64,000 nucleotides of DNA from Bacillota bacterium (GCA_017656145.1 JACDOI010000005.1:12941-76940), one strand, 5' to 3'. Counted from the first letter of the stretch, positions 10,428 through 43,062 are shown. Translations and numbers: made by a program. The notes: a model not told the origin generated them from the sequence alone.

Positions 10428-10440
10428 GGCCGTCCTCCCT

Positions 10441-12506: not shown

Positions 12507-12511
12507 CGGAG

Positions 12512-12540: not shown

Positions 12541-12545
12541 GGCCG

Positions 12546-12575
12546 AAAAAAAGGCCACGCGGTCGCGTGGCCTTT
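12546..12575 (-). terminator. intrinsic terminator (attenuator) in the trp leader
   Basis: Minus strand AAA-GGCCACGCG-ac-CGCGTGGCC-TTTTTTT. It lies between the promoter and trpE, 30 nt after the triplet array. Confidence 0.75.
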
Positions 12576-12604
12576 CTGGGATCCCACTTAGAAACAGAGG
12601 ATAC

Positions 12605-17355: not shown

Positions 17356-17445
17356 CTCACCTCGCCTCCGTTTTCCGGAGCCCGGTCGAGCCCGAGCGAA
17401 TACCCTCATACTATATGCCGGGGCGCTGGCGGGAGTTCCAGGTCC

Positions 17446-27989: not shown

Positions 27990-28017
27990 CCGGAGGGGCG
28001 CCGCGGCGCCCCTCCGG
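27990..28017 (-). terminator. perfect 13-bp GC-rich palindrome after the SLH gene (possible U-tract-less terminator)
   Basis: CCGGAGGGGCGCC-gc-GGCGCCCCTCCGG, 25 nt downstream of the stop at 28042. No T-run follows. Confidence 0.4.
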
Positions 28018-28041: not shown

Positions 28042-29829
28042 TCACCGGCTGAGGCCGAGCAGGATGGCCAACACCGCGGCCCCCGCTGCCAGGGTGCCGG
28101 TGCCCCGTAGCGACCCGATCTCGTTCTCCGCTCTGGACCGGTAGCTGGCGAATTCGGACTTCAGTTCTTCCAGCTCCCGCTCCAGGCGCTGCTCCCGGGC
28201 GATGCTCAAGTTGAGCTGGGTCTCCATTTCCCGCCGCAACCGGTCGGCCAAGTTGGCGATTTGCTCTTCGCTTGTCCCAAGCAGCCCTTGGATGTCCCGG
28301 ATGGCCGCCTGAATCTCCGACAGCTCCTGGCGAATCGCACCCCGCTCGCTCCGGGACTCGGCCAAGGCGCTGTCGAAATCTTCTCTCAAAAGGTTGATGG
28401 CCGCCTCGTTGGCCAGGACCCGACCCTCCAGCGCGTCCTGTCGCCGGCGCAACGCCTGCACTTCCTGCCGCAGAGATTGCACATCCTGCAGAACTTGGGC
28501 GTCGCCTTCCACCAGCGCCGCGGACCGCCGTTCCGACTCCTCCCGGAGCGCGGCCAGCTCAGCTTCCAAGCTCGCCAGCAAATCGTGCAAGGCGCTGATC
28601 TGGGAGTCCAACCGCTGGCCCTCTTGGGCCGCCTGCTCTTCGACGGCTTCCACCTGGGCGCGGACCTCGTTGAGGCGGGCTTCCTGGTCCGACAGCCGCT
28701 CCTGGTGAGCGGCCAAAAACCGCCGCAGCTCCTCATCGGCGGTCTGCGCGGCCAGGCCCCGGGCTTGGACGGTCTCCTCAAGCTGCTCAAGGGCGGCCGC
28801 CAGATCCGCCGCGTCAGCCCGGAGCGTCGCCAGCTCCCCGCTCAAGTCGGAGACTTGCGCGTCCAACCGCTCATTGACCGCGGATTCCAGTTGGCCAAGG
28901 CGCAAGGCGATGGCCGCCGCCTGTTCGTTCATCAAGTTGGCCAGCCGCTGGACGTCGTCGTCCACCCGAACGGTCAACGCCGCGAGCTGTTCTTTCACGG
29001 CGTCCAGATCCTCCCGGAGCCCGTTTACCCGCTCATCCAATGCGGTCAAGTCCGCCGCCAGGCCCGACACGTCCGTCTCCAACGCTTCGAGAGCCGTGCG
29101 ATGTTCCCCGAGCCGCTGACCGAACTCCTCCTCGAGGGTTATCCCGTGCTGCTCCAAAGCCTGCTCCAGCGCGGCCTGCAGCGCGTCCAACCGCTGGGTC
29201 AAGTCTTCGCTGGTCTGCACAAGCCGCGCGTGCAACTCCGCGAGGCTTTCGTCCTGGCCGTCCATGCGCTCCTCATGCTCGTCCAGCAGAGCGTCCCGGG
29301 TTGCCAACTCCTGAGCAAATTGGGCGTCCATGGCCTCAAGCACCGCCGTGAGCTCCGCCCGGGCCGCCGCCTCCGCGTCGCGAAGGCTGTTCAGTTCGGA
29401 TTCGAGCAGCTCGAGATCCCGCAAAACCCGGTTCAGCTGCTCGTCGACGACGGCGACAGCCCGCTGGGTTTGGGCGTACGACGATTGCAGCTCGTCCCGC
29501 TCGGCGTGCCACGCCACCAGTTCCGCCCGGAACTCCTGTTCCAGCTGCCGGATAAGCTCCGCGTCGGCACCTTCCCGAATCTGTATCCGGCCGGCTTCAA
29601 TGTCCTCCAAAAGCCGCCCTACAACGGCTGCGACGGTAAACCGGTCCACCGGCTCTTCGCCCCGGAACGTACCGTCGTCGGCGATGTCCAAATACCCCCG
29701 GTCTACCAGCTCCCGAACCGCCTCGTACGCCCAGTGGTCCGGAGGCACGTCGGCCAGCCCGGCTGCGGCCGGAATGCCTGTCCAGGCCAAAAGCATCATG
29801 AGGGTCCATCCCAGGGCCCATCGCTTCAT
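28042..29829 (-). CDS. exported SLH-domain protein with a very long coiled coil and a C-terminal hydrophobic tail anchor
   Basis: ATG at 29829 with AAGGAGAGGTGA RBS. Signal peptide MKRWALGWTLMMLLAWTGIPAAAG. One SLH domain (DVPPDHWAYEAVRELVDRGYL..DGTFRGEEPVDRFTVA). About 480 aa of Glu/Leu/Ala/Arg heptad-like sequence. Ends GTLAAGAAVLAILLGLSR. Confidence 0.8.
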   Translation of the reverse strand: MKRWALGWTLMMLLAWTGIPAAAGLADVPPDHWAYEAVRELVDRGYLDIADDGTFRGEEPVDRFTVAAVVGRLLEDIEAGRIQIREGADAELIRQLEQEFRAELVAWHAERDELQSSYAQTQRAVAVVDEQLNRVLRDLELLESELNSLRDAEAAARAELTAVLEAMDAQFAQELATRDALLDEHEERMDGQDESLAELHARLVQTSEDLTQRLDALQAALEQALEQHGITLEEEFGQRLGEHRTALEALETDVSGLAADLTALDERVNGLREDLDAVKEQLAALTVRVDDDVQRLANLMNEQAAAIALRLGQLESAVNERLDAQVSDLSGELATLRADAADLAAALEQLEETVQARGLAAQTADEELRRFLAAHQERLSDQEARLNEVRAQVEAVEEQAAQEGQRLDSQISALHDLLASLEAELAALREESERRSAALVEGDAQVLQDVQSLRQEVQALRRRQDALEGRVLANEAAINLLREDFDSALAESRSERGAIRQELSEIQAAIRDIQGLLGTSEEQIANLADRLRREMETQLNLSIAREQRLERELEELKSEFASYRSRAENEIGSLRGTGTLAAGAAVLAILLGLSR

Positions 29830-29887
29830 GATCGCTCGTTCACCTCTCCTTAATGAAAGCATCGAACCATTGCCGGTTAACGCACCG

Positions 29888-32017
29888 TCACGGCTGCTCT
29901 TCCCCGCCCCGGACAAATACGACCGCCTCGTCGACAACCACGTTCACCGCATGGCCTTCTCCATCGGCCACGAACGCTTGTTGGGCGTCCGGGCGCAAGA
30001 AAGGGTGGTCGGCCACCGGGACAAGGCGCAACGCCGTACGGCCCTCGCCCACCGCCCGAAACCGGATCGTCGCCAGCGAATCGTTCCCCCACGGAAGCGG
30101 GTCTTTCGGCGACCGGCTGCCCGCGATGCGCACGACGCCCGTGCGGTTGTCCACCGCAGCGGGAATCCACCCAAGCCGCTCCCGTTCGCCGGTGATCGGA
30201 TTCACGTCGACGAACAAGCGTCCCCAGCCGACGCCCCGGGCCCCCCCGATCACCTGAAGCACGGCGGGGTCGAAGCGCAGCTCGAACGCGGCGCCGAAAA
30301 ACGGCCGCACGTTTTGGGCCCGCACCTCCACCGCGAACAGATCGCCCACGGCCACATCGACCTCCGAAGCGCCGGAGCGGGCGTCCACGATCTGCAGCGC
30401 CGCGTCGAGCCGGGGCACGTTGACGAAGTGGATGGGAAAGCGCGAGTCGATGCGAGCGTTATCGGATGTCAGCTCGACGGACACAGGCAAGTTGCCGACG
30501 ACCCCCGTGGGCACCAGGTGCCAGCGAGCCGTCACCGTTTGGCCGGGCTCCACGGAGCCGAGCCGCCACACCGCTCGATCGCCCCGTGCCAGGGAAAGCC
30601 CGATCGGCATTTGGATTTCCGCTTCCACGCCCCGCGCTTCCAGCTCCCCGGTGTTGGTAATTTGGGCTTCGACCGCAAACGGCACAGGCGACCATCGGCC
30701 ATCGACGACTTGGAGGTCCGTCGGGCCCGTTATGGCCGCGCTCAAAGACGCCGGCGCGACGACCGTGACCGACCGGTCGACCCGGTTCGGGTCGGTGTTT
30801 TCTGCTGTCACGAAGACCCTGTAGACGAACTCGCCGAACGTTTCCGGCGGGGCAGCTACCCGCCAGCTGACTTGCCGGGAAGCCCGCGGGGCCAAATCCC
30901 CCAGGCTGACCTGCGGGGATCCTTGGACCAGTTGCAGGGGACCGAGATTCTCGAGTCGCACCACCGCATCCCGCGCGATCCAGTCGCCGGTGTTCTCGAC
31001 GTACGCCCGGACCTCAAACACGACAGGCTCGTCGTAATGTCCTTCCACCGAGGCCGGAGACGTAACGCCCAGCGACAGCTGTCCCGGAGCGATGGTGATA
31101 CCGCCCAGGCCGTAATAGATCACGTACCGCCGGGACTGGCCCGGATCAAGAGGCGCCGGATCCCAGTAGAGGGCGACAGCGCTGTCCAGTTCGAACCCTT
31201 CCCCGACCCGGGTGAAATCCCGTCCGGGAGAGAAATCGAAGTCCCAGATGCCGTCGGCGAGGCTGCCCCAGTTTGAAAAGTAAACCTCATCCGGAACAGT
31301 GGTGTCGAAGGCTCGAAGGGTCCCTTGGGAAACGACCCTCGGGTTGGCCAGCGAGTCAAAGGCTTGAAAGTAGTCGGGGATGGCCTCGTGCCGAAACCCG
31401 TGGTCGGCGGTGAGAGCCTGCCCGCTCACTTGAAACGGAGCGCCGTCGTTTGCTCCCAGCATCGTATCGAGCATGATCCGCAAGCCCACTGTTCGGGTCT
31501 GGGAACCCTCGTTGGCGACGACGTACTCGATCCGGGCCGTATCCGGATTTCCGGTGGTGATCCCCTTTGCGATGGAGATCACTTGGGTCACCAGGATGTC
31601 CCCCATCCGAAACGCGGTCCGTATCTCGCGCCCCTCATGAAACGTCGGCGGTTCCACCATCTGTCCGTACTGTCCTGTGCGGCCCGCCCGTTTTCCCGTC
31701 TGGCCGCCGAATACGTAATCGCGGCCGTCGATCCGCACGGTGGTGTACGACGTCCACGGACCGGGAGGGTTTTCGGTGCCGTAGATGAGCGGCATGCGCT
31801 CATCCCCTTCCCGTTCGGGATCTCCCCCGGTCGTGTTGACGGAGAACCGCCCGGTGTCCTCGTTCCTTGCGTTGACGACGATGGCGATGAATTCGTTTTC
31901 CAGGACAAAGCTGTCTCCGCTCCGGGTCTGCACTTCTTGGGCCAGGGCCGGTGACCCCGCCAAGGCCAGGGCTAAGATGAGCATCCCGATGAGCCGTGGG
32001 CTCAGCACGAACGGCAC
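29888..32017 (-). CDS. secreted multidomain protein: unassigned N-terminal domain, two CARDB-like Ig domains, C-terminal cohesin-like domain
   Basis: Signal peptide LIGMLILALALAGSPALAQE. Two segments of the type VxNTG...xxVxL...L..G.S..V.W (CARDB-like). C-terminus LFAVEVRAQNVRPFFGAAFELRFDPAVLQV...LATIRFRAVGEG (cohesin-like). The start could instead be the GTG at 32008. Confidence 0.75.
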   Translation of the reverse strand: MPFVLSPRLIGMLILALALAGSPALAQEVQTRSGDSFVLENEFIAIVVNARNEDTGRFSVNTTGGDPEREGDERMPLIYGTENPPGPWTSYTTVRIDGRDYVFGGQTGKRAGRTGQYGQMVEPPTFHEGREIRTAFRMGDILVTQVISIAKGITTGNPDTARIEYVVANEGSQTRTVGLRIMLDTMLGANDGAPFQVSGQALTADHGFRHEAIPDYFQAFDSLANPRVVSQGTLRAFDTTVPDEVYFSNWGSLADGIWDFDFSPGRDFTRVGEGFELDSAVALYWDPAPLDPGQSRRYVIYYGLGGITIAPGQLSLGVTSPASVEGHYDEPVVFEVRAYVENTGDWIARDAVVRLENLGPLQLVQGSPQVSLGDLAPRASRQVSWRVAAPPETFGEFVYRVFVTAENTDPNRVDRSVTVVAPASLSAAITGPTDLQVVDGRWSPVPFAVEAQITNTGELEARGVEAEIQMPIGLSLARGDRAVWRLGSVEPGQTVTARWHLVPTGVVGNLPVSVELTSDNARIDSRFPIHFVNVPRLDAALQIVDARSGASEVDVAVGDLFAVEVRAQNVRPFFGAAFELRFDPAVLQVIGGARGVGWGRLFVDVNPITGERERLGWIPAAVDNRTGVVRIAGSRSPKDPLPWGNDSLATIRFRAVGEGRTALRLVPVADHPFLRPDAQQAFVADGEGHAVNVVVDEAVVFVRGGEEQP

Positions 32018-32025
32018 CTCCGCGT

Positions 32026-33396
32026 CTACGGCCGGTCGAGATAACGGCGGCCTTCGAAATCGAGGACTTGCACCCGACTGCTGACGCCACCCATCGTCAC
32101 CACTTCAAACCGCACTCGCCAGACCTCCACGAAGGACCGGCCTTCCGGGTCGGGGTTGAACGTCCACCGGCGCAACTGCTCCACCAACCTTGTGTCGATA
32201 TCTTGCAGGCTTGTGGAGCCGATAACCCTCACATCCGCCACCGTACCGGCTCCAGACACCTCCACCTCGACTACCAGATCGGCCAGCGGGTAGTCGATGG
32301 GAACGTTTTCTAAAGCCTTCGGCGTTCCCAGGCCGGGGTTGCGGGCCAGGGATACGGGCGGCGGCGGAGGCGCCCCCTCGCCCTCCAATGCTTCAGACGG
32401 GTCAAGGTCGCCGTCCTGCGGCTCAGCGGCGGGCTCCCCGTCTCCCGGCCGCTCCTCATCCGGCAGCGCCGGCTCGGGCCGGTCTTCCGGTTCCGCAACG
32501 GGCGGCGTCGCGCGATCCGCCAGCGATCCAGGTTCCGGATCAGGCTCAAGCGGTTCCGGTTCCGGCTCGGGCCCGGGAGAAGGCCCAGGCAGCGGCAGGG
32601 GCGGAGCCTCCAAAGGCGCGGACTGTGAGCCCGGCTCCGGCTCAGACGGGGATTGCGGTGTCGCTGGATCGGCAGGCTCGGGAACGGACTCCTCCGCGGG
32701 GCGGGCGGCCGGGATGTCGAAAACGCCCTGGTCGCTGGCGAGGATCTCCTCTCCGATCCCTGGCCCCTGCTCCGGATCGGGAGCAAGTTCAGCAGGGGCC
32801 GGAGGTTCACGGTCCGGCAAATCCGTCGCCTCCGACTGGCGCGGCAGCCCGGGCGGCTCGACCGGTTCAGGCTGGGGTTCGGACGCCGCTGGGCCGGTTG
32901 GCTCAGGCCGAGGCTCGGGCGCAGGCGGCTCCGGTACCGGTTCTGACGGCGCTTCGGGCTCCGGCTCGGGTTCCGGTTCCGGCTCGGGCCTAGGCTCCGG
33001 CGCCGCCTCCGGGGGCCGTTCAGGAGGCTCAGGCGCCCGCTCCGGCTCGGGCCGGCTCTGTTCCACCGGCGGTCGCTCAGGACTGGGCGGCTGAACGGCG
33101 GGCGCGTCCGCACGCGGGGGTTCCGGCTCGGGCGCAGGCTCCGGCATCTTGGCTTGCGGCCGAGGTCGCTCGGAAGCGATGGGAACCGGCCGCGACGGCT
33201 GCGGCGGCTGGGGCATCGGCACCGACGGGGCCGGCAGGCTGACCAGTTCGACTACGCCGCCCTGGTCGAGGCCGGGGCCGGTGACCACCGCCGACTGCCA
33301 CTGGGGCCACAACCAGATGAGCAAACCGTGGACGAGCACGGAAAGGATGAAAAACCAGTGGAATGAGGACTGTTCCTCCCGCTCGTCGGCGGTCAC
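32026..33396 (-). CDS. TonB/TolA-like energy transducer (N-terminal TM, about 300 aa Pro/Glu-rich linker, TonB_C-like domain)
   Basis: GTG at 33396 with AGGTGAGG RBS. TM helix FHWFFILSVLVHGLLIWLW. Long PEPEPE/APEP tracts. C-terminal IDYPLAD...VEVEVSGAGTVADVRVIGSTS...FNP resembles the TonB C-terminal fold. Confidence 0.7.
   Translation of the reverse strand: MTADEREEQSSFHWFFILSVLVHGLLIWLWPQWQSAVVTGPGLDQGGVVELVSLPAPSVPMPQPPQPSRPVPIASERPRPQAKMPEPAPEPEPPRADAPAVQPPSPERPPVEQSRPEPERAPEPPERPPEAAPEPRPEPEPEPEPEPEAPSEPVPEPPAPEPRPEPTGPAASEPQPEPVEPPGLPRQSEATDLPDREPPAPAELAPDPEQGPGIGEEILASDQGVFDIPAARPAEESVPEPADPATPQSPSEPEPGSQSAPLEAPPLPLPGPSPGPEPEPEPLEPDPEPGSLADRATPPVAEPEDRPEPALPDEERPGDGEPAAEPQDGDLDPSEALEGEGAPPPPPVSLARNPGLGTPKALENVPIDYPLADLVVEVEVSGAGTVADVRVIGSTSLQDIDTRLVEQLRRWTFNPDPEGRSFVEVWRVRFEVVTMGGVSSRVQVLDFEGRRYLDRP
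32316..33234 (-). repeat. low-complexity Pro/Glu/Ala-rich coding tract inside the TonB-like gene
   Basis: Runs such as PEPEPEPEPEPEAPSEPVPEPPAPEPRPEP. It produces mirror-image Gly/Ser-rich and Arg-rich ORFs in other frames. Confidence 0.6.
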
Positions 33397-33418
33397 GCAG
33401 CCTCACCTGCCTCTAGAC

Positions 33419-33832
33419 TTACCTCTGGGGTTCGACGCTCAGGGCCAACCGAAACGCGCCCGCCTCGCGCGCCAGATCCATCGCCCGAACGACGTGATCA
33501 TAGGCGGCCCGGCGATCGGCGGAGACGATGACCAGCGTGTCCGCCCGCCGGGCGACGGCTTCCCGGACCCGGGAGCGCACCTGGTCGGGCGACGCGGCCT
33601 GGCCGTTGATGAAGAAAGCCCCTTGCTGGGTGACGGTGATGCGCAATTCCGATGTCTCGTGGACCGCGGCCGTGGCGGCCCGGGGCAGGTCAACTTGGAT
33701 TCCCGTTGGATCGGTGCGGAACGTCGTAAACACCATGAAGAACGCGACCAAGAAAAACATCACGTCGATGAGCGGCACAATGTTGACGACGGGCGCCCGG
33801 CGCCGCTCGCGCTCGATAGCCACGCTACTCAC
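33419..33832 (-). CDS. exbD: biopolymer transport protein ExbD/TolR
   Basis: 137 aa with NIVPLIDVMFFLVAFFMV and the typical periplasmic domain. Overlaps exbB by 8 nt. Confidence 0.9.
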   Translation of the reverse strand: MSSVAIERERRRAPVVNIVPLIDVMFFLVAFFMVFTTFRTDPTGIQVDLPRAATAAVHETSELRITVTQQGAFFINGQAASPDQVRSRVREAVARRADTLVIVSADRRAAYDHVVRAMDLAREAGAFRLALSVEPQR

Positions 33833-34439
33833 CTCGCAGGGTGGACAGAACCTCGAGCAGTTCCCCGCTGCGGCGGTTCATATCCGCGACCCGGCGGTCG
33901 ATGATGCTGCCGATCCAGTTGTAGAGCACCACCGTCGGCACCGCGACGACAAGCCCCGCAGCGGTGGTGATGAGCGCCTCGGCGATGCCGGAAGCCAGCA
34001 CTTGAGGCGAGTCAAGACCGGCCAAAGATCCGAGCACGTTGAAGCTGCGCATAATACCGGTTACCGTTCCCAAAAGGCCCAAGAGCGGCGCAATGGTGGC
34101 GATGCTGTCTAACATGACCAGGCGGCGCTCCATCTTGTACAGCTCGTCCCGGCCCACTTCCTCCAACCGCTCCTTGAGCTCGTCCCGGGGACGGTCCGAA
34201 TACGCGATACCGGTGGCCACCAGGGCGGCCACTTGTCCCCGGGAGCGCTTGGCGATCTGCACCGCCTCCAGCACCTTTCCCTGTTCCAGGGCCAGCTTGA
34301 CTTCATCCATGAGATCGTCCGAATCGGCCCGGGTGCTGTACAGATACCACAACCGTTCCAAAGCGACGGCCACGGTCAACACCGAACAAAACAGCAGCGG
34401 GATCATCACCAGGCCGCCTTTGACGAGCACGTCGATCAT
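33825..34439 (-). CDS. exbB: MotA/TolQ/ExbB proton-channel protein
   Basis: 204 aa with three TM segments and LGLLGTVTGIMRSF...GIAEALITTAAGLVVAVP. RBS GGAGGGTGA. Confidence 0.9.
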   Translation of the reverse strand: MIDVLVKGGLVMIPLLFCSVLTVAVALERLWYLYSTRADSDDLMDEVKLALEQGKVLEAVQIAKRSRGQVAALVATGIAYSDRPRDELKERLEEVGRDELYKMERRLVMLDSIATIAPLLGLLGTVTGIMRSFNVLGSLAGLDSPQVLASGIAEALITTAAGLVVAVPTVVLYNWIGSIIDRRVADMNRRSGELLEVLSTLRGE

Positions 34440-34543: not shown

Positions 34544-34588
34544 AAAAAGGAAAGCGCCTCCGACCGGGTGCGCCCGGCGCAGGCGCTT
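34544..34588 (-). terminator. intrinsic terminator after the GNAT gene
   Basis: Minus strand AAGCGCCT...(inner GCGCC-g-GGCGC)...AGGCGCTT followed by TCCTTTTTG. Confidence 0.7.
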
Positions 34589-34620: not shown

Positions 34621-35181
34621 CTAGCTTGCGCGGGCACGCTCCGGATGGCGGCGCAAGAATTCCTTCCTCCACATTCGCATGAGAATCACTTCCCTCCGGT
34701 CGCTTTCCCCGGTTCGGCGGACGAGAAATCCCTCCTGCCGGAAACCGACTCGGCGGTAGCATCGCACGGCCCGTTCATTGGCCGCAAAGACACGGAGATA
34801 GACCCGGCGCAAATTCAAGGAGCCGAAAGCGTAGGCCAAGAGCAAAGTCACCGCCTCGGACCCGTAGCCTTTGCCCCATTGCGCTTTTTCACCGATTCGC
34901 ACCCGAAGCTCCCCGTCGCCGCTGCGCCAGGCGATGTGATCGAGCTCGATGTCCCCGATCAGAAGCCCGTTCAACAGCTCAATGCCGAACACCTGCCGGT
35001 GCCGGTCGCTCCGGATCTTTTGATGCCAGGCCGGGCAGTCCGCAAGAGAACGGGGATAGTCCCCGTCGAGAAACCGCCCGACATCGGGATCCAAAGTCCA
35101 TTTGACCAAAAGGGGGTAATCGTCCGGGATGATAGGCCTGAGGGCGACGTTCTCCCCGGCAATCGTTGGCGTCATTGGCAC
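34621..35181 (-). CDS. GNAT family N-acetyltransferase (RimJ/RimL-like)
   Basis: Contains VALRPIIPDDYPLLVKW, WGKGYGSEAV and RVFAANERAVRCYRRVGF. GTG at 35181 has AAGGAG 6 nt upstream; ATG at 35175 is the alternative start. Confidence 0.85.
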   Translation of the reverse strand: MPMTPTIAGENVALRPIIPDDYPLLVKWTLDPDVGRFLDGDYPRSLADCPAWHQKIRSDRHRQVFGIELLNGLLIGDIELDHIAWRSGDGELRVRIGEKAQWGKGYGSEAVTLLLAYAFGSLNLRRVYLRVFAANERAVRCYRRVGFRQEGFLVRRTGESDRREVILMRMWRKEFLRRHPERARAS

Positions 35182-35336
35182 GGTACACTCCTTCGGCGGT
35201 GGTCTGAACGGTGGCTGCAACTGCGATCGACGATGAGGGGGAGACGCTATTCTTTTGACCTAGGGGAGCACTTCGACTGCCGGAACCGGGCCCCTGCCGG
35301 CAAAATCAGGCGGGACCGGCGCGGCTTTGGGCCAGG

Positions 35337-36092
35337 TCATTCCAGCCATCGACGGAACTGCTCCAGGATGCGGCGCTCGGTGCGGGATACGTGGGCCTGG
35401 GAGACGCCGAGCCGCCGGGCTGTCTCAGCCTGGGACAGGTCGAGGAAATATCGCAGGGCAACCAGACGCCGCTCCCAGTCGGCCAGCCGCATCATCGCCG
35501 CCCGCAAAGCGGCGGTCTCCAACAGCTCGTCCGCAGGGCCGCTGGCCGCGATGCGCTCCTTGAGGGGAGGCTGTTCCCCATCCTCCCCACCGGATCCGGC
35601 CTCTAGAGAAGCAACCGCCTGAAACGCGTCGAGGGCCGCGACCACTTCTTCCGATCCGACCCCAAGGTCTGCGGCGATTTCGGCCGGGGTAGGCGCTCGG
35701 GAGAGCTTCTGGGCTAACCGGTCCCGGGAGACGGCCACCCGCGCACCCAGCTCGTGCACGGCCCGGCCCACCCGCACCGCCCGATCTTCCCGCAGACGTT
35801 GCCGGATCTCCCCGATGATGACCGGCACCGCGTAGGTGGAAAACCGGACCTCATAGCTCAGGTCAAACCGGTCGATGGCTTTCATCAGGCCGACGCAACC
35901 GATTTGGAACAGATCGTCGAACTCCGCGCCCCGCCCTTGAAACCGGGCCGCCACGCTGGCGACCAGGCGCAGGTTGGCCTCCACCAGCCGGTCCCGGGCT
36001 TCCCGGTCTCCTTTTTGGGCCCGGGCCAACAGGGCCCGGGTTTCGTCAGGCGAAAGACCGCCCGGGGCCGCGCTTCCCCAGGGCCCGTTCAC
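35337..36092 (-). CDS. sigF: RNA polymerase sporulation sigma factor SigF
   Basis: 251 aa with DLFQIGCVGLMKAIDRFD and FSTYAVPVIIGEIRQ. It follows spoIIAA-spoIIAB. GTG start with AAAGGGGAGG RBS. Confidence 0.93.
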   Translation of the reverse strand: MNGPWGSAAPGGLSPDETRALLARAQKGDREARDRLVEANLRLVASVAARFQGRGAEFDDLFQIGCVGLMKAIDRFDLSYEVRFSTYAVPVIIGEIRQRLREDRAVRVGRAVHELGARVAVSRDRLAQKLSRAPTPAEIAADLGVGSEEVVAALDAFQAVASLEAGSGGEDGEQPPLKERIAASGPADELLETAALRAAMMRLADWERRLVALRYFLDLSQAETARRLGVSQAHVSRTERRILEQFRRWLE

Positions 36093-36107
36093 CGCCGGCC
36101 TCCCCTT

Positions 36108-36560
36108 TCAACTGGGAATCCGAGCCCGCGCGGGCGTTTTGTACAAGGTGACCGTCGTTCCCCGGCCGGGGGCCGATTCCACCTCCACCCGGTCGCTATA
36201 CTCTTCCATGAAGGTAAATCCGAGGCCCATGTGCTCTTCCGGTTTCGTCGTCCACTGGGCCTGGCGGGCGGATTCCACGTCCTCGATTCCCCGGCCTCGA
36301 TCCTGAACGGCGACTACGAGACATCCGTCGCCGGTGATGGCCGCCTCCAACCGGATGCAACCGTCTTCCCCGGCGTACCCGTGGACGACGGCGTTGGACA
36401 CCGCCTCGGAGACCGCGACTTTCAGCTCGTCCAGTTCGTCAACGGTAAACTCCAGCTGCGCGGCGAACACTGCGACGGCGGTGCGGGCAAAGGCGACGTT
36501 CTCCGGCCTGCTGGGAAACTCCATCACCACCTGGTTCCGGATCCCCTCTGGCAACTTCAT
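36108..36560 (-). CDS. spoIIAB: anti-sigma F factor (serine kinase) SpoIIAB
   Basis: 150 aa with the N-box VSEAVSNAVVHGY and the G-box DRGRGI...GLGF. The start overlaps the spoIIAA stop (ATGA). Confidence 0.94.
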   Translation of the reverse strand: MKLPEGIRNQVVMEFPSRPENVAFARTAVAVFAAQLEFTVDELDELKVAVSEAVSNAVVHGYAGEDGCIRLEAAITGDGCLVVAVQDRGRGIEDVESARQAQWTTKPEEHMGLGFTFMEEYSDRVEVESAPGRGTTVTLYKTPARARIPS

Positions 36561-36928
36561 GGGGCAGGGTTTCCCTCCTTCACCAAGGCCAGGGCCTGCT
36601 GCTGGGTGTCCGCCACCGCCACAAGGCGCAGTAGCCCGGCCAGCTCCAGGACGCGGCGCACCGGCGGGCGGGGACCTAGGATCACCATCTGCCCGTCCCG
36701 CCGGGTGCGGATCTCCCGGTAGCGCCCGAGGATGGCTCCGACCCCGGAGCTGTCGACAAAGCGGACGCCGCGGAGATCGAGAATCAGGTGGCGGATCCGG
36801 CCAGATCCGTCTAGCTCCTCCTGGACCAGCGTTCGAAACGGGCCGGCGCTCTCCAAGTCCAGCTCACCGTTGAGGCGGACGATGAGGCTGTCCCGCACCC
36901 GCCTGGCTTCCATGCGCACCCGCGGCAC
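36557..36928 (-). CDS. spoIIAA: anti-anti-sigma factor SpoIIAA (STAS domain)
   Basis: Contains LIVRLNGELD and the phosphorylatable serine context FVDSSGVGAILG. The start is ambiguous among GTG 36928, GTG 36919 and ATG 36913. Confidence 0.9.
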   Translation of the reverse strand: MPRVRMEARRVRDSLIVRLNGELDLESAGPFRTLVQEELDGSGRIRHLILDLRGVRFVDSSGVGAILGRYREIRTRRDGQMVILGPRPPVRRVLELAGLLRLVAVADTQQQALALVKEGNPAP

Positions 36929-36948
36929 CTCCCACGCGCCGCGGAGAA

Positions 36949-36976
36949 CTTTCGGTATAGTCTTTCAAGTTCCTTC
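36949..36976 (-). promoter_or_regulatory. possible sigma-H-type promoter of the spoIIA operon
   Basis: Minus strand AAGGAACTT, 14 nt, then CGAAAG. This resembles the sigma-H consensus (AGGAWWT ... GAAT) and the B. subtilis spoIIA promoter layout. Confidence 0.35.
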
Positions 36977-37081
36977 CCGCAGGCGCTGCGGATCGTCCAA
37001 GCACGCCGGAGGAAACCCACAGGCCGGCGAACAGACCATCGAAGCTCAGGCTGTTCAATGCTTCCGGTCATCCCGGGCATA

Positions 37082-38284
37082 TTACCAGAAAAAGCTGCCG
37101 AGCAATCGGCGCGCGGTGCTGACCAACAGCGACCAGGCAGTCCCCCGGGGAATGTCAGCCGCCGCGACCAGCTCCACGCGGTCTATCTCCTGCCCGTCCT
37201 GAAGAACGATGAGCTCGCCCATGGCCTGACCCCGGCTTACCGGTGCCAGAACGCGCTCTTCCAGCCGAACTTCCCGTTCCACTTGCGCCTTGGTACCGCG
37301 GGGGACGACGACTCGAACTGCGCGCGAGGCTACAACGCCGACGTTGTCCTCTAGCCCCTTGGCCACCCGCACCCGCCCGAACGGTTCGGAGTCCTCGACG
37401 ACTTCCTGCGCCTGGTACTGGCTGAAACCCCAGTTGAGCAGCGTTCGGATGTCTTCGTCCCGGGAATCCCGGCTCGGCGCGCCCAGCACGACCGCGAGCA
37501 AGTGAAGGCCGTCCCGCACGGCGCTGGCAGCAAGACAATAGCCCGCCTCCTGGGTAAATCCCGTCTTAATGCCGTTCGCGCCTTCGTAAGAGCGCAAAAG
37601 CCGGTTGCGGTTCCAAAACTCCCGCTCCGCCCGGGTGCCGACCCGAACCCGATACGGCCCGTACGTGGAGACGAGTTCCTCAAACATGGGCAACGTGTAG
37701 GCGTACCGGGAGACGACGGCCACATCGTACGCGGACGTCACATGGGGCATGCCCGCCATCCCGACGTCTTCCGGCGGCAAACCTGAGGCGTTGGCCAATT
37801 GCGTGTTCTGCGCGCCCAGTTGCCGGGCCCGCTCGTTCATCCGGCGGGCAAAGGCTTCCTCGGTTCCCGCCAGGTGTTCGGCCACCGCCACCGCCGCGTC
37901 GTTGGCCGATTCGACTGCGATGCCGTACAAGAGGTCCCGAAATGACATCTGTTCCCCTACTTCGAGGTACACCTGGGTGCCACCCATGCTCGCCGCCCGC
38001 CTGCTCACGGTCACCAGGTCATCCAGGGCGACGCGCCCGTCCCGCAGCGCTTCCAAGGCCACCGCCAGGGTGAACACCTTGGTGACGCTGGCCGGGGGCA
38101 GGGGTTCGTGGGCGTTTTTCTCAAACAGCACCCGGCCGCTGTGGGCTTCGATGAGGATGGCGGAGCGGGCGGAAACGGGCAGATCAGGGTTCGCCGTGCT
38201 CGGCTGGGCAGCAAAAGTCACCGCCGCGGCGCAAAACAGCACGGCCAGCAAGGCGTTCGCCGACCGCCGCATCAAGGCGCGCAT
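37082..38284 (-). CDS. dacF: D-alanyl-D-alanine carboxypeptidase (PBP5 family, DacF-like)
   Basis: ATG at 38284 with AAGGAGG RBS. Signal peptide, active site PPASVTKVFT (SxxK), SANDAA-like ESANDAAV (SxN) and IKTGFT (KTG). The 145-codon extension in the track is Arg/Pro filler. Confidence 0.9.
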   Translation of the reverse strand: MRALMRRSANALLAVLFCAAAVTFAAQPSTANPDLPVSARSAILIEAHSGRVLFEKNAHEPLPPASVTKVFTLAVALEALRDGRVALDDLVTVSRRAASMGGTQVYLEVGEQMSFRDLLYGIAVESANDAAVAVAEHLAGTEEAFARRMNERARQLGAQNTQLANASGLPPEDVGMAGMPHVTSAYDVAVVSRYAYTLPMFEELVSTYGPYRVRVGTRAEREFWNRNRLLRSYEGANGIKTGFTQEAGYCLAASAVRDGLHLLAVVLGAPSRDSRDEDIRTLLNWGFSQYQAQEVVEDSEPFGRVRVAKGLEDNVGVVASRAVRVVVPRGTKAQVEREVRLEERVLAPVSRGQAMGELIVLQDGQEIDRVELVAAADIPRGTAWSLLVSTARRLLGSFFW

Positions 38285-38373
38285 CGCGCAAGCCTCCTTC
38301 AGGGCCAAGTTGCCTCCCTCCATGCCTATTCTGCGCCCGGCGGGCGTAGCACGGCGGGGGCCGCTGGCCCGGG

Positions 38374-39681
38374 TCAGCCCGCGATGCGCTGAATGACCAG
38401 GGGACGGGAACGAGGGGGTCTTTGGCTGATGACAAAGCACCGCCGGATCCGATCGGTGACGGCCGCGACCGCCTGCGGGGACGCGGCGTGGACCTCGCAC
38501 AACGGCTCGCCTTGTTCCACCCAGCTGCCGGCTTTGGCGCGCACGACCAGGCCTACCGAATGGTCGATGGCGTCCTCTTTGCGGCGGCGGCCGGCCCCAA
38601 GTTCCATGGTGATGAGCCCTAGCTGCTTGCCGTCGACCGCGGACACCCAGCCGGCCTGGGACGCCTCTACGGTCGCCCGCACGGCCGCCTGGGGGAGGCG
38701 GTCGGAATCGTCGATGCACGCAGGATCGCCGCCTTGATTGACGACCATCTCCCGGAATTTGGCTAAAGCTTTACCGCTTGTCAGCGCGTCTTGCAGAAGA
38801 TTCCGGGCTTGCTCAGCGCTTGACGCTACGCCGGCAAGAACGAGCATCTCGACACCTAAGGCGATGACAAGGTCGGTGAGATCGGCCGGCCCCTGTCCCC
38901 TTAGCGCGTCGATGGCCTCTTTCACCTCCAGGGCGTTTCCGATGGCATGGCCCAAGGGCTGATCCATGTCGGTCACCAGCGCCACGACCCGCCGGCCTGC
39001 CCGCTGGCCGATGGCGACCATCGTCTCGGCCAGTTTCCTGGCGTCCTCAAGCCGGGGAAGAAACGCCCCCCGTCCGGTCTTGACGTCGAGCACTAAGGCG
39101 TCAGCGCCCGCGGCCAATTTCTTGCTCATGATGCTGGACGCGATGAGAGGGATGCTTTCCACAGTGCCGGTCACGTCCCGGATGGCGTACAGCTGCTTGT
39201 CCGCTGGCGCCAGCTCGGCCGTTTGCCCCATGATCGCCACGTTGATCCGGTTGACGCTGTCCACAAACTCTTGCATCGACAGCTCTACACGGAAACCCGG
39301 GATCGATTCGAGCTTGTCCAAGGTTCCGCCCGTATGTCCGAGCGCCCGGCCGGACATTTTGGCCACCGGCGCTCCACAGGCTGCCACCAGCGGCGCGAGG
39401 ACGAGCGTCGTTTTGTCCCCGACCCCGCCGGTAGAATGCTTGTCCACCTTCACGCCCGCGATGGGACTCAGATCGACCGTTTGACCGCTGTCCACCATGG
39501 TTTGGGTCAGGGCGGCGGTTTCCTCATCGGTCATGCCCCGGAAAAACACCGCCATGCACCAGGCGGAGATCTGGTAATCGGCCACCTGGCCGTCCAGCCA
39601 CCCCCGGACGAGAAAGCGGATCTCCTCGGGGGACAATTCGCCCCCCTCCCGCTTTTTGATGATGAGGTCAACGGCCCGCAC
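38374..39681 (-). CDS. pdp: pyrimidine-nucleoside phosphorylase
   Basis: 435 aa with DKHSTGGVGDKTT and SGRALGHTGGTLDKLE. GTG start with GAGGGGGG RBS. Confidence 0.94.
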   Translation of the reverse strand: MRAVDLIIKKREGGELSPEEIRFLVRGWLDGQVADYQISAWCMAVFFRGMTDEETAALTQTMVDSGQTVDLSPIAGVKVDKHSTGGVGDKTTLVLAPLVAACGAPVAKMSGRALGHTGGTLDKLESIPGFRVELSMQEFVDSVNRINVAIMGQTAELAPADKQLYAIRDVTGTVESIPLIASSIMSKKLAAGADALVLDVKTGRGAFLPRLEDARKLAETMVAIGQRAGRRVVALVTDMDQPLGHAIGNALEVKEAIDALRGQGPADLTDLVIALGVEMLVLAGVASSAEQARNLLQDALTSGKALAKFREMVVNQGGDPACIDDSDRLPQAAVRATVEASQAGWVSAVDGKQLGLITMELGAGRRRKEDAIDHSVGLVVRAKAGSWVEQGEPLCEVHAASPQAVAAVTDRIRRCFVISQRPPRSRPLVIQRIAG

Positions 39682-41146: not shown

Positions 41147-41785
41147 TCACGGGAGCATGCGAGCCACTGCGTCCATGAGCACGGGCGTCACGTACGCTTC
41201 CACAAAGGCGGCCGCGACAAACGCCGCGGCGCTTGTCCCAAGCAACAGGCCGGTGCCCAGCAAATGGTGATACATGCTGGTCTCCCGGCGGCCCAACAGC
41301 ACCCGGACAGCGGCCAACGAGAAGCTGATGGCGCTGGCCCCCGCCACGATGAGGGCGGGAACCGCCAGCACGTTGTGGGGAACGATCGCAGCGACAGCCA
41401 GAATGAGTCCCCGGAACATGAGCCGGTCCACTAAAAACGCGGCCGTGAATCCCAGGACAAATCCCCGCAGGAAAACGACAGCCAGGACGAAAGGCGCGCC
41501 GATGATGGAAAGACCCAACAAACCGATGAGTCCCACGGTCTTGAGCAGCTGATCGGCAGCCGCCTGCCGCAGGACGTCCTCGGGCTCGGGGAACGCCCGT
41601 TCCTTTTCAACGTCCATGAGCCCTTCCAGCTCAAGGCCGAGGGCGGCCCGTTGGTCGGTGCCGACGCGGCCGACGGCCAGTCCGCCCCAGACGGTCCCCA
41701 TGGCAAAAACGATGACGACGGAAAGATAAATCGCGGTCCTGCGGCGGAAATAGCCTTTCAGGACGTCCGCGAACCCGCCGGCCAC
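41147..41785 (-). CDS. spoIIM: stage II sporulation protein M
   Basis: 212 aa polytopic membrane protein. N-terminus FADVLKGYFRRRTAIYLSVVIVF and AIVPHNVLAVPALIVAG are typical of SpoIIM. Confidence 0.88.
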   Translation of the reverse strand: MAGGFADVLKGYFRRRTAIYLSVVIVFAMGTVWGGLAVGRVGTDQRAALGLELEGLMDVEKERAFPEPEDVLRQAAADQLLKTVGLIGLLGLSIIGAPFVLAVVFLRGFVLGFTAAFLVDRLMFRGLILAVAAIVPHNVLAVPALIVAGASAISFSLAAVRVLLGRRETSMYHHLLGTGLLLGTSAAAFVAAAFVEAYVTPVLMDAVARMLP

Positions 41786-41841: not shown

Positions 41842-43062
41842 TTAGCACCCGCGGAGCGTTTCTGTCCGCAGTCCGCCCGTCCCCGGGCCCGATACCCGGC
41901 CGTACACGCCGCCGCCGCCGGCCCGTAAAGGCAAGCGGCCTTCGCGCGCAAGCAAGATGCGGCCTGCGACGTCAGAGCCCGCCACAGCCGCCAGCTCTTC
42001 GGCTGGAATCCGGTGGAGCACCGACATTTCGGTTCCGAACGCATCCAATAGCCTCGCCATAGTACGGGGACCTACCCCCGGCACGAATGCCAGCGGCACC
42101 TGGTGGACGTAGGGCGGCCTGCCGGGCGGCGATTCCGGGTTTGAGCGGTCGGCGATTTCTTCCAGCCGGTCGAGCACCCCCTTGACCATCCGATCGCTGC
42201 CGCAACGGCCGCAGCGGTGCACCGGCGGAGGCCCGCCGGCCACCTGGCCGCAGGCGAGACAGGCGCTGCGGTAATACTTGCCGAGGCGGGGATCCAGGCC
42301 GTAGTTGGCCGCCACCCGGCGGCCGCCGTTCCGTTTCAGCGCCCGCACCAGCTCCTCAAAGGAGGGGCGTTCGACCTCCAGCGCGCTGAACTCCCGGCCG
42401 ATGCGCTCCGGCGAGTGGGCGTCGGAACTGGACAAGAACGCCCGAGAGGCGAGTTCGCTCAGCCGATCGGCCATAGCCGTGTCCGCCGACAGACCCAGTT
42501 CGACAGCGAAAACCCGCGCGGCCTCGGCGCCGAACACGTCCTCAAGCCGGGGCGCGCACGCGCCGTAAAACCCTTTGTGGGGCGTGAACACATGGGCCGG
42601 AACGAGAAACCCGCCGTGCCCCTCGGCAAGATCAAGCAAGTCTTTGGCCCGCATCCGGGTCCGCTGGGACGAAAGCTGGATGTTGCGGATTGTCCGGCCC
42701 AACACCTCGGCAGCGCCGTCGACGGACGCAAGATCCGGGAAGTAGAGGACATAGTGCGCGGGGCCGGCTCCTTCCCCGCCGATCTCCACCTCGACCGCAG
42801 GGATCAGAACCGGCCCCCCGTCAAACCGCAATCCCCCTCCGGGTTCGGGAGCCATCCGCCCCGCGTCCAAAAGGCGCCGGATGTCGTTTCGCACTCCCGG
42901 GGAGGCGCAGTCCACGACGGCCACCAGGTCGATGCCCTTGCGCCTTCGACATTCTTCCAAAACGACCTCCAGCGTCATCCGGCGCGCGGCAGAGATCTTT
43001 ACCGGATGCCCGTCGCCGGAGGAGCCCACATGGACGTGTAAGTCGGCGAAATACCGGTTCAG
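41842..43062 (-). CDS. endonuclease Q-like PHP-domain protein (TIGR00375 family), probable CTG start
   Basis: Colinear with archaeal/Bacillus EndoQ: VPAHVFTPHKGFYG, VELGLSADTAMAD, SSSDAHSPERIGREF, GLDPRLGKYYRSACLAC, CGRCG and RPPYVH. The N-terminal FADLHVHV motif lies upstream of the track GTG (43029). The only in-frame start after the TAG at 43068..43066 is CTG 43062, with GGGGGGA 6 nt upstream. Confidence 0.8.
   Translation of the reverse strand: MNRYFADLHVHVGSSGDGHPVKISAARRMTLEVVLEECRRRKGIDLVAVVDCASPGVRNDIRRLLDAGRMAPEPGGGLRFDGGPVLIPAVEVEIGGEGAGPAHYVLYFPDLASVDGAAEVLGRTIRNIQLSSQRTRMRAKDLLDLAEGHGGFLVPAHVFTPHKGFYGACAPRLEDVFGAEAARVFAVELGLSADTAMADRLSELASRAFLSSSDAHSPERIGREFSALEVERPSFEELVRALKRNGGRRVAANYGLDPRLGKYYRSACLACGQVAGGPPPVHRCGRCGSDRMVKGVLDRLEEIADRSNPESPPGRPPYVHQVPLAFVPGVGPRTMARLLDAFGTEMSVLHRIPAEELAAVAGSDVAGRILLAREGRLPLRAGGGGVYGRVSGPGTGGLRTETLRGC

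What the first reader, a model, noticed from the sequence alone, without database searches (positions are those of the whole stretch)
28042..34439. ExbB-ExbD-TonB-like motor operon continuing into a secreted CARDB/cohesin-like protein and an SLH coiled-coil tail-anchored protein (Tol-Pal-like logic, no barrel receptor)
Five co-directional genes are packed tightly (8-nt overlap, then gaps of 22, 8 and 58 nt). They are bracketed by a terminator upstream of exbB (34544..34588) and a strong palindrome downstream (27990..28017). The genes encode, in order:
- a MotA/TolQ/ExbB channel;
- ExbD/TolR;
- a 456-aa protein with one TM helix, about 300 aa of Pro/Glu-rich linker and a TonB_C-like end;
- a 709-aa signal-peptide protein (unassigned N-domain, two CARDB-like Ig domains, cohesin-like C-domain);
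- a 595-aa protein with a signal peptide, one SLH wall-binding domain, about 480 aa of coiled coil and a C-terminal hydrophobic anchor.
No TonB-dependent beta-barrel is encoded here. The order (motor, extended transducer, soluble envelope partner, wall-binding protein with coiled coil) mirrors tolQ-tolR-tolA-tolB-pal-cpoB, with SLH replacing the OmpA-like peptidoglycan-binding module. In a sporulating Bacillota background this could be an undescribed proton-motive-force-driven envelope-tethering or wall/S-layer-remodelling system. It may also hint at a diderm-type envelope.
Basis: partly seen in the sequence, partly recalled or inferred. Interest (0 to 1): 0.75.

Follow-up and report, generated by a model that had tools for sequence, protein, structure and literature searches.

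The report
Orphan TonB motor with wall-tether partners
A five-gene operon pairs a proton-driven TonB-type motor with a sugar-binding-like periplasmic protein and a wall-binding coiled-coil anchor instead of the usual outer-membrane receptor. It is conserved across three phyla of two-membraned bacteria that lack Tol-Pal, so it is a candidate for an undescribed envelope-maintenance machine.

Summary
Five co-directional minus-strand genes (28042-34439) have exactly the stated spacing and are bracketed by two strong hairpins.

They encode:
- ExbB/TolQ-like and ExbD/TolR-like motor subunits.
- A TonB-family transducer: one TM helix with S-x3-H, a linker of 32% Pro, and a TonB_C end.
- A secreted 709-aa all-beta protein.
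- A 595-aa protein with a signal peptide, SLH domain, about 475 aa of coiled coil and a C-terminal TM helix.

New findings:
- The unassigned N-domain of the 709-aa protein has a galactose-mutarotase-like supersandwich fold, which is typically carbohydrate-binding.
- The SLH plus stalk of the fifth protein best matches the periplasmic wall-binding stalks of OmpM and SlpA. It looks like a barrel-less, Omp-alpha-like tether.
- The gene order is kept in all 80 related genome loci examined (Limnochordia, Halanaerobiales) and in Margulisiibacteriota and Armatimonadota.
- One Armatimonadota genome keeps only TonB, the 709-like gene and the coiled-coil gene together.

No TonB-dependent receptor lies in the window. 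Published work found none in Halothermothrix orenii and no Tol-Pal in Terrabacteria.

The most likely function is a PMF-driven envelope module that is Tol-Pal-like in logic but not in ancestry. The mechanism is inferred, not shown. I found no paper describing it.

The parts
34544..34588 (-). Terminator-like hairpin with a U-rich tail after the upstream GNAT gene. It marks the 5' boundary of the operon.
   Evidence: -31.4 kcal/mol, z -2.5, followed by UUUCCUUUUU.
33825..34439 (-). ExbB/TolQ-like proton-channel subunit, 204 aa, 3 TM helices.
   Evidence: Pfam MotA_ExbB 5.5e-31. NCBIfam best matches are TolQ 4e-29 and ExbB 6.7e-24, both far below the equivalog cut-offs. TM segments.
33419..33832 (-). 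ExbD/TolR-like subunit, 137 aa, one TM helix carrying the Asp in PLIDVMFF.
   Evidence: Pfam ExbD 2.2e-30. TolR 4e-22 and ExbD 5e-15, both below cut-offs. Sequence.
32026..33396 (-). TonB-family transducer, 456 aa. It has a TM helix at residues 11-30 with the S-x3-H motif, a roughly 310-aa linker (32% Pro, 17% Glu) and a TonB_C-type C-domain.
31058..31936 (-). N-domain of the 709-aa protein (residues 28-320). It is a galactose-mutarotase-like beta-supersandwich, the most conserved part of the protein, and has no Pfam model.
   Evidence: AlphaFold2 pLDDT 87. Foldseek against the PDB gives TM 0.5-0.58 and E 4e-8 to 1e-5 to GH94 N-domains, a cyclic glucan synthase, aldose epimerases and YidC P1. 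47 invariant residues.
30410..31057 (-). Two Ig-like (CARDB/NPCBM_assoc-like) beta-sandwich domains, roughly residues 321-536.
   Evidence: AlphaFold2 secondary structure. Weak Pfam hits here. Precomputed PF10633, PF07705 and PF01345 in many homologues.
29900..30409 (-). Cohesin domain, roughly residues 537-706.
   Evidence: Pfam Cohesin 1.2e-5, above the cut-off. Profile hits to solved type-II cohesins at 4e-15. Retained in Armatimonadota but diverged in Margulisiibacteriota.
29888..32017 (-). Whole 709-aa secreted protein. Signal peptide residues 1-27, cleavage motif ALA/QE, no lipobox.
   Evidence: 100% identical to a MAG protein that NCBI names 'cellulosome anchor protein'.
29440..29769 (-). 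SLH domain plus the start of the stalk of the fifth protein (residues 21-130). It is of the OmpM/SlpA type.
   Evidence: phmmer against the PDB: D. radiodurans SlpA 9.7e-10, V. parvula OmpM1 7e-9, B. anthracis Sap only 4e-3. NCBIfam por_somb N-terminus 8.6e-11.
28042..29829 (-). Fifth protein, 595 aa: signal peptide, one SLH, about 475 aa of proline-free coiled coil, and a C-terminal TM helix at residues 576-594 (28048-28104).
27990..28017 (-). Perfect GC-rich palindrome just after the stop codon, a probable terminator without a U tract. It marks the 3' boundary.
   Evidence: -35.2 kcal/mol, z -3.1.

Best explanation
This is one operon encoding a proton-motive-force-driven, envelope-spanning module of diderm Terrabacteria.

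Motor and transducer. An ExbB/ExbD-type motor in the inner membrane energises a genuine TonB-family transducer.

Partners. The transducer's partner is not a TonB-dependent barrel. It is the two proteins encoded immediately downstream:
- A periplasmic four-domain beta-sandwich protein: a probable glycan-binding supersandwich, two Ig-like domains and a cohesin.
- A coiled-coil protein, probably trimeric, whose N-terminal SLH and stalk are homologous to the peptidoglycan-binding stalk of OmpM/SlpA. Its far end is a single-helix membrane anchor, giving a barrel-less, Omp-alpha-like tether.

Proposed action. The motor uses TonB to pull on or reposition the beta-sandwich protein and/or the tether. 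That would control the attachment between wall and membrane. This is the job Tol-Pal does in Gracilicutes, done here with unrelated output parts.

Shown here: the domain identities, the operon structure and the co-conservation of the genes across three phyla.

Inferred: that the TonB C-domain contacts these two proteins, which membrane holds the tail anchor, that the N-domain binds a wall glycan, and the physiological role.
For: Operon anatomy: tight spacing and two bracketing hairpins.

Domain identities.

Conservation of gene order ExbB-ExbD-TonB-709-like-coiled-coil:
- Every one of 80 genome loci where the contig allows, covering Limnochordia and Halanaerobiales at 40-70% identity.
- Margulisiibacteriota.
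- Armatimonadota.
- Gene overlaps of a few bases are common.

Minimal core: the complete Armatimonadota genome CP070648.1 keeps TonB, the 709-like gene and the coiled-coil gene together without ExbBD alongside. This points to these three as the partners.

Orthology of the fifth gene: a cross-phylum coiled-coil motif (h-h-[RK]-E-D-L) and a universal C-terminal hydrophobic tail.

No receptor nearby: none among the 38 Pfam-scanned proteins of the 64-kb window.

Literature:
- The H. orenii genome paper found ExbB/ExbD/TonB together, found no TonB-dependent receptors, and suggested a different function (PMC2626281).
- A 2025 survey that searched for tonB and receptor genes detected Ton systems only in Negativicutes among Firmicutes, and found Tol-Pal only in Gracilicutes (PMC12204202).
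- Pal is absent from Terrabacteria (bioRxiv 10.1101/2021.05.31.446380).
- Limnochordia are diderm by electron microscopy (PMC11456536).
Against: - No interaction was tested.
- The window's own TonB_C sits at Pfam's threshold.
- Whether these genomes lack TonB-dependent receptors was not checked here. It rests on papers about other species.
- A signal peptide plus a C-terminal helix would by default leave the fifth protein in the inner membrane, not the outer.
- The coiled-coil length varies from about 60 to about 1300 residues and does not covary with TonB linker length (rho -0.21, p 0.12, n 58). That fits poorly with a simple periplasm-spanning ruler.
- Armatimonadota copies have no SLH, so wall binding is not universal.
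- The N-domain also occurs in proteins with no motor nearby, fused to RHS or PKD modules.
Confidence: 0.5

Rival explanations
1. This is an ordinary Ton nutrient-uptake system. ExbB-ExbD-TonB energise TonB-dependent barrels encoded elsewhere. The two downstream genes are envelope passengers that merely share the transcript.
For: - The transducer C-domain is clearly TonB-type rather than TolA-type.
- tonB is often unlinked to its receptors (PMC12204202).
- Receptor content of these genomes was not examined here.
Against: - The downstream pair stays with tonB across three phyla, and does so even when exbBD are not adjacent.
- No receptors were detected in H. orenii.
- Ton systems were not detected in non-Negativicutes Firmicutes.
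- No receptor lies among the 38 Pfam-scanned proteins of the 64-kb window.
Confidence: 0.15
2. This is a cell-surface scaffold, as NCBI's name 'cellulosome anchor protein' implies. The 709-aa protein would display a cohesin that docks dockerin-bearing enzymes, the SLH protein would anchor it to the wall, and the motor genes would be unrelated neighbours.
For: - The cohesin domain is genuine and resembles type-II anchoring cohesins.
- An SLH domain is present.
Against: - The cohesin is the least conserved part and is unrecognisable in Margulisiibacteriota orthologues.
- SLH is absent in Armatimonadota.
- This SLH matches periplasmic OmpM/SlpA stalks far better than the S-layer protein Sap.
- Linkage to tonB is invariant.
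- The locus sits among housekeeping genes, with no glycoside hydrolases nearby.
Confidence: 0.07
3. This is a sporulation or germination device of diderm Firmicutes. The motor would remodel cortex or membranes during engulfment or outgrowth.
For: - In Limnochordia the module always follows dacF-spoIIAA-spoIIAB-sigF, and in one genome it precedes spoVAC/D/E.
- In Halanaerobiales it lies between spmA-spmB and a cwlJ/sleB-like gene.
Against: - The same module occurs in Margulisiibacteriota and Armatimonadota. From general knowledge these phyla do not form spores.
- In the window the downstream genes are iscS and thiI.
- No sporulation-type promoter was identified.
Confidence: 0.1
4. This is a wall-glycan processing or uptake machine. 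The supersandwich domain would be catalytic or a substrate receptor for a wall polymer, with TonB delivering energy for turnover or import and no role in tethering.
For: - The fold is shared with polysaccharide lyases, the GH174 family and mutarotases, as well as with non-catalytic N-domains.
- The domain has 47 invariant, mostly polar or aromatic, residues.
Against: - There is no match to any catalytic family in Pfam or NCBIfam.
- TM scores are only about 0.5.
- No transporter is encoded in the operon.
Confidence: 0.13

Closest known systems
Tol-Pal system (TolQ-TolR-TolA-TolB-Pal-CpoB) of Gracilicutes
   Same: - A 5:2-type motor, then an extended single-pass transducer, then a soluble periplasmic beta-rich partner, then a wall-binding membrane-anchored protein, all in one operon.
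- No barrel receptor.
- The motor subunits score slightly better against the TolQ/TolR models than against the ExbB/ExbD models.
   Different: - The transducer C-domain is TonB-type (8.5e-12 against 7e-3 for TolA).
- The soluble partner has a supersandwich, two Ig domains and a cohesin, not a TolB propeller.
- The wall binder uses SLH, a coiled coil and a helical anchor, not a lipoprotein with an OmpA-like domain.
- There is no CpoB and no YbgC.
- It is found in Terrabacteria, where Tol-Pal is absent.
Canonical Ton system (ExbB-ExbD-TonB with TonB-dependent transporters)
   Same: ExbB and ExbD domains, the S-x3-H motif in the TonB TM helix, a Pro-rich linker, and the TonB_C fold signature (YP...G.V.V...SSG..LD...W.F).
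   Different: - No receptor in the locus or among the Pfam-scanned window genes.
- Obligate linkage to two non-barrel proteins.
- None of the NCBIfam equivalog cut-offs is reached.
OmpM (diderm Firmicutes) and SlpA (Deinococcus) outer-membrane-to-wall connectors
   Same: An N-terminal single SLH with the W-x-Y motif and the conserved Arg, followed by the conserved start of the stalk. These are the best solved-structure matches. One SLH per chain implies a trimer, as in OmpM.
   Different: The C-terminal beta-barrel is replaced by a very long coiled coil and one TM helix.
Thermotoga Omp-alpha
   Same: SLH plus a long coiled-coil rod (about 45-50 nm) that tethers the toga to the wall without a barrel of its own (PMC10160955). 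A C-terminal hydrophobic anchor was reported by Engel et al. 1992; that point is from my own knowledge.
   Different: Omp-alpha pairs with a beta-barrel (Omp-beta or others), not with a TonB motor. Direct sequence homology to Omp-alpha was not tested.
vWA-type motor-driven force transducers (PMC12204202)
   Same: Another case of TolQR/ExbBD-like motors coupled to non-canonical outputs, recognised by synteny and the SHLS/His motif.
   Different: In those systems the transducer C-domain itself is replaced. Here the transducer is a normal TonB and the novelty lies in its partners.

Membership tests
Ton system | ExbB: MotA_ExbB domain with three TM helices | tested here: met
   Pfam 5.5e-31. Three hydrophobic segments.
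Ton system | ExbD: ExbD/TolR domain with a TM aspartate | tested here: met
   Pfam 2.2e-30. Asp within PLIDVMFF in the TM helix.
Ton system | TonB: N-terminal TM helix with S-x3-H, a Pro-rich linker and a TonB_C domain | tested here: met
   The window copy is borderline (24.5 against 24.6 bits). 68 of 70 orthologues match TonB_C, and the profile hits solved TonB C-domains at 8.5e-12.
Ton system | A TonB-dependent barrel receptor as the energised partner | tested here: inconclusive
   None among the 38 Pfam-scanned window proteins. The rest of the genome is not available. The literature reports none in H. orenii.
Ton system | NCBIfam equivalog scores for ExbB and ExbD | tested here: not met
   ExbB 84.9 against 206.2. 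ExbD 55.9 against 123.45.
Tol-Pal system | TolQ and TolR equivalogs | tested here: not met
   TolQ 101.9 against 221. TolR 79.2 against 127.3.
Tol-Pal system | TolA-type C-domain | tested here: not met
   The profile matches TonB at 8.5e-12 and TolA only at 7e-3.
Tol-Pal system | TolB beta-propeller partner | tested here: not met
   The model shows four beta-sandwich domains and no propeller.
Tol-Pal system | Pal: an outer-membrane lipoprotein with an OmpA-like wall-binding domain | tested here: not met
   The fifth protein has an SLH, has no OmpA domain and has no lipobox.
OmpM/SlpA connectors | N-terminal SLH followed by a coiled-coil stalk | tested here: met
   SlpA 9.7e-10 and OmpM1 7e-9, aligned over SLH and stalk.
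OmpM/SlpA connectors | C-terminal outer-membrane beta-barrel | tested here: not met
   The C-terminus is coiled coil plus one TM helix at residues 576-594.
Omp-alpha-like tethers | SLH, a long coiled-coil rod, and no barrel on the same chain | tested here: met
   The architecture of Omp-alpha is taken from PMC10160955.
Omp-alpha-like tethers | Localisation of the tail anchor in the outer membrane | not testable with these tools
   Needs fractionation or imaging.
Cellulosome anchoring scaffoldin | Cohesin module | tested here: met
Cellulosome anchoring scaffoldin | SLH repeats on the same polypeptide, and dockerin-bearing partners | tested here: not met
   There is no SLH on the 709-aa protein. 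Dockerin partners were not searched for.
Zorya or other MotAB-based phage defence | ZorA/ZorB and accessory defence proteins | tested here: not met
   PADLOC gave only a 7.9e-4 generic hit on ExbB and coiled-coil noise.

The most novel reading that the evidence does not exclude
The module is the long-missing functional counterpart of Tol-Pal in diderm Terrabacteria. It would be an ancestral TonB-driven machine that loads, releases or relocates an OmpM-stalk-like tether through a glycan-binding adaptor. By doing so it would coordinate outer-membrane attachment with wall growth and division in lineages that have no Pal, Lpp or TolB.
Probability: 0.25. Interest if true: 0.88.

Novelty: new variant of a known kind. 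Interest (0 to 1): 0.72.

Why it matters
How diderm Terrabacteria keep their outer membrane attached and pull it in at division is an open question. They lack Tol-Pal, Pal and Lpp, and OmpM is the only tether described so far.

This is a conserved, motor-linked module whose fifth gene carries an OmpM-type wall-binding stalk. It gives a concrete, testable candidate. It would also explain the 'orphan' TonB noted in Halothermothrix in 2009. Finally, it adds an unannotated, widespread supersandwich domain (about 2,500 sequence clusters) to the list of envelope modules.

Tried and rejected
- Foldseek with the whole 709-aa model returned only generic Ig-repeat proteins such as integrins and ciliary proteins, with TM below 0.25. 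It was uninformative, so I re-modelled the N-domain alone.
- TonB linker length does not covary with coiled-coil length (rho -0.21, p 0.12). This gives no support for a shared 'ruler'.
- I looked for Rosetta-stone fusions. Longer N-domain proteins carry low-complexity, RHS, PKD or Big_2 modules, never TonB or ExbD.
- There is no sigma-70-like promoter in the region, and the consensus terminator scan missed both hairpins.
- The Fuchsiella protein had no contig on record. Its context came instead.
- PADLOC and Rfam gave nothing.
- Seven literature searches found no description of the module. The library lacks many subscription papers, for example Taib 2020 and Beaud Benyahia 2025.
- A conserved first strand (h-x-h-x-N-E-Y/F-I) lies right after the signal peptide of the 709-like proteins. 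I considered it as a TonB-box analogue but could not test it.
Full report
**What is there.**
The upstream GNAT gene ends in a hairpin with a U-rich tail (34544-34588, -31.4 kcal/mol). The last gene is followed by a perfect 12-bp GC stem (27990-28017, -35.2 kcal/mol, z -3.1). I Pfam-scanned 38 proteins in the window: the five module genes plus 33 of the larger predicted ORFs, not the smaller ones. The 33 flanking proteins are all core genes: rseP, proS, polC, nusA, infB, pnp, spoIIM, dacF, spoIIAA/AB-sigF, iscS, thiI, miaB, mutS, mutL, miaA and the trp operon. None is a beta-barrel or a TonB-dependent receptor. The 709-aa protein is 100% identical to a protein from a 'Firmicutes bacterium' MAG. 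Its relatives are Limnochordia, a high-GC class shown by electron microscopy to be diderm (PMC11456536).

**Motor and transducer.**
- Gene 1 is MotA_ExbB (5.5e-31) with three TM segments.
- Gene 2 is ExbD (2.2e-30) with the TM aspartate.
- Against NCBIfam both genes score a little better on TolQ/TolR than on ExbB/ExbD, but they fall far below every equivalog cut-off.
- Gene 3 has a TM helix (residues 11-30) with the S-x3-H motif shared by TonB and TolA. It has a 310-aa linker (32% Pro, 17% Glu) and a C-domain that sits on Pfam's TonB_C threshold.
- I collected the ORF in the same position from 69 related loci. Of 70 aligned C-domains (these 69 plus the window copy), 68 match TonB_C (best 1e-17). 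The profile built from them hits solved TonB C-domains at 8.5e-12, against 7e-3 for TolA.
- So this is a real, somewhat divergent TonB.

**The 709-aa protein.**
It has a cleavable signal peptide and no lipobox. AlphaFold2 with a 54-sequence alignment gives an all-beta, four-domain model (pLDDT 92).
- The C-domain is a genuine cohesin. Pfam scores it above the cut-off, and the profile hits type-II cohesins at 4e-15.
- Two Ig-like sandwiches precede it.
- The N-domain (residues 28-320) is the most conserved part, with 47 invariant positions, and it matches no Pfam or NCBIfam model.
- Modelled alone (pLDDT 87), the N-domain matches the galactose-mutarotase-like supersandwich. Matches include the N-domains of GH94 phosphorylases, a cyclic glucan synthase, aldose 1-epimerases, the periplasmic P1 domain of YidC and some lyases (TM 0.5-0.58, E 4e-8 to 1e-5).
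- That fold usually binds carbohydrate. Whether it does so here is inference.
- An exhaustive search found the N-domain in 2,567 sequence clusters. Some are fused to RHS, PKD or Big_2 modules and lie away from any motor. It is therefore a general extracytoplasmic module that this operon has recruited.

**The fifth protein.**
It has a signal peptide, one SLH, about 475 residues without a single proline and with heptad hydrophobic spacing, and a TM helix within two residues of the C-terminus (576-594 of 595).
- The best solved-structure matches to its first 110 mature residues are Deinococcus SlpA (9.7e-10) and Veillonella OmpM1 (7e-9). Both alignments run through the SLH into the start of the stalk.
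- The S-layer protein Sap scores only 4e-3.
- The W-x-Y motif and the Arg of OmpM's T-R-Y-E motif are kept. The window copy reads D-R-F-T and the Halanaerobiales copies read T-R-Y-E. PMC10628300 links these residues to the periplasmic, peptidoglycan-binding SLH of OmpM.
- The protein is therefore an OmpM/SlpA-type stalk whose barrel has been replaced by a long rod and a single helix. This is the architecture described for Thermotoga Omp-alpha (PMC10160955).

**Conservation.**
- A scan of one genome per GTDB species found relatives of the 709-aa protein in 349 species. The 80 best are Limnochordia-type MAGs and Halanaerobiales: Fuchsiella, Frackibacter, Halonatronum, Halanaerobacter and Natroniella.
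- In every locus where the contig reaches far enough, the order is ExbB, ExbD, a roughly 1-kb TonB ORF, the 709-like gene and an SLH/coiled-coil/tail-anchor gene. All are on one strand and close together.
- More distant orthologues show the same five genes in Margulisiibacteriota, next to holB, rpsU and lptFG.
- The same five genes occur in Armatimonadota.
- In the complete Armatimonadota genome CP070648.1, tonB, the 709-like gene and the coiled-coil gene stay together without exbBD alongside.
- The Armatimonadota fifth proteins lack SLH. They keep the coiled coil, a short [RK]-E-D-L motif and the tail anchor.
- The Armatimonadota 709-like protein aligns over its full length at 40% identity. 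The Margulisiibacteriota protein aligns only through the N-domain and the two Ig domains.

**What it most likely does.**
Linkage this tight across three phyla makes TonB, the beta-sandwich protein and the tail-anchored rod functional partners. That linkage includes a minimal three-gene form.

The literature agrees that the usual partner is missing:
- H. orenii has ExbB/ExbD/TonB together but no detectable receptors (PMC2626281).
- A 2025 survey that scored tonB and receptor genes found Ton systems only in Negativicutes among Firmicutes (PMC12204202).
- The same survey found Tol-Pal only in Gracilicutes, and a separate analysis found Pal absent from Terrabacteria.

I therefore favour a PMF-driven module that acts on wall-to-membrane attachment. 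It would be Tol-Pal-like in logic but built from TonB plus unrelated output parts. The contacts, the membrane that holds the anchor, the ligand of the N-domain and the phenotype are all inferred.

Points against a simple tether model:
- By default, a signal peptide plus a C-terminal helix leaves a protein in the inner membrane.
- Rod length ranges enormously, from 138 to 1,447 aa in total protein length.
- Rod length does not covary with TonB linker length.

**Rivals.**
- A normal Ton system with distant receptors is not excluded for this genome, but it fits the linkage poorly.
- NCBI's 'cellulosome anchor' reading rests on the least conserved domain. It also conflicts with the OmpM-type SLH and with the housekeeping context.
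- A sporulation-specific role is suggested by the neighbours: dacF-spoIIA upstream in all Limnochordia loci, and spmAB upstream with a cwlJ/sleB-like gene downstream in Halanaerobiales. The module's presence in phyla that, from general knowledge, do not sporulate contradicts it.
- A defence system is excluded by PADLOC.

**Novelty.**
Seven full-text searches found no description of this module, although the library is incomplete. The motor and transducer are of a known kind, and the partner set and its distribution are new. I therefore class it as a new variant of a known kind, of clear interest to envelope biologists.

Noticed in passing
window 34621-38719; loci L001, L004, L009-L082: In every Limnochordia-type locus the module sits directly downstream of dacF-spoIIAA-spoIIAB-sigF-GNAT. 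In L001 it is followed by spoVAC/D/E. It therefore occupies the slot between the spoIIA and spoVA operons of Bacillus-type gene order.
   Followed up: partly
L020, L042, L063-L065, L070, L071 (Halanaerobiales): In Halanaerobiales the module lies between spmA-spmB (spore maturation genes) plus a PHP-domain gene upstream, and a cwlJ/sleB-like cell-wall hydrolase plus hisZ-hisG downstream.
   Followed up: partly
36 of 64 loci, e.g. L001:6289-7107 and L065:6666-7508: An orthologous PHP-domain protein of about 275 aa lies just upstream of exbB on the same strand in both Limnochordia and Halanaerobiales. It may be a sixth, facultative member of the operon. It is not adjacent in the window, where a PHP-like ORF lies at 41842-43029.
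   Followed up: partly
window 31058-31936 and proteins P0241, P0250, P0251, P0254, P0262: The supersandwich N-domain has no Pfam model, yet it occurs in about 2,567 clusters at 50% identity. Some copies are fused to RHS repeats, PKD, Big_2, Big_5 or CarboxypepD_reg modules. One copy sits in a genome region with no motor genes (L084).
   Followed up: partly
L081:11930-16273, L058:12189-15308, L050:12074-14740: The coiled-coil gene varies enormously in length within Limnochordia, from 344 to 1,447 aa. The longest copies are visibly built from internal repeats. Halanaerobiales copies are uniformly 220-238 aa.
   Followed up: partly
L083:11411-17368 and L086:11937-17845: In Margulisiibacteriota the module is followed by holB, rpsU, lptF/G, a large TPR protein and a roughly 800-aa protein with weak LptC/LptD_N similarity. 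That places it next to LPS-transport genes.
   Followed up: no
L054, L076, L047, L082, L018: Several MAG records carrying the Limnochordia-type or Firmicutes-type locus are labelled Betaproteobacteria, Natronincola, Clostridiaceae or Peptococcaceae. These are probably taxonomic mislabels of the bins.
   Followed up: no
L030, L035, L052, L054, L059, L061, L062, L066, L068, L073, L074: A third group of Bacillota MAGs carries the module in a different genomic context, without spoIIA or cwlJ neighbours. Their fifth proteins share a distinctive tail (LRKENGLLKVLL...). Their class was not identified.
   Followed up: no
window 1-64000: No Rfam family reaches its gathering score anywhere in the 64 kb, including upstream of the trp operon (about 5900-12600) and of the aminoacyl-tRNA synthetase gene proS.
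   Followed up: no
window 43059-44159 and 16360-17409: A DUF3866 protein (E 8e-121) sits beside the PHP_C-containing ORF (41842-43029), with spoIIM (41147-41785) just beyond it. A SpoVK-like AAA protein (AAA plus AAA_lid_6) lies next to miaA. Neither was examined further.
   Followed up: no
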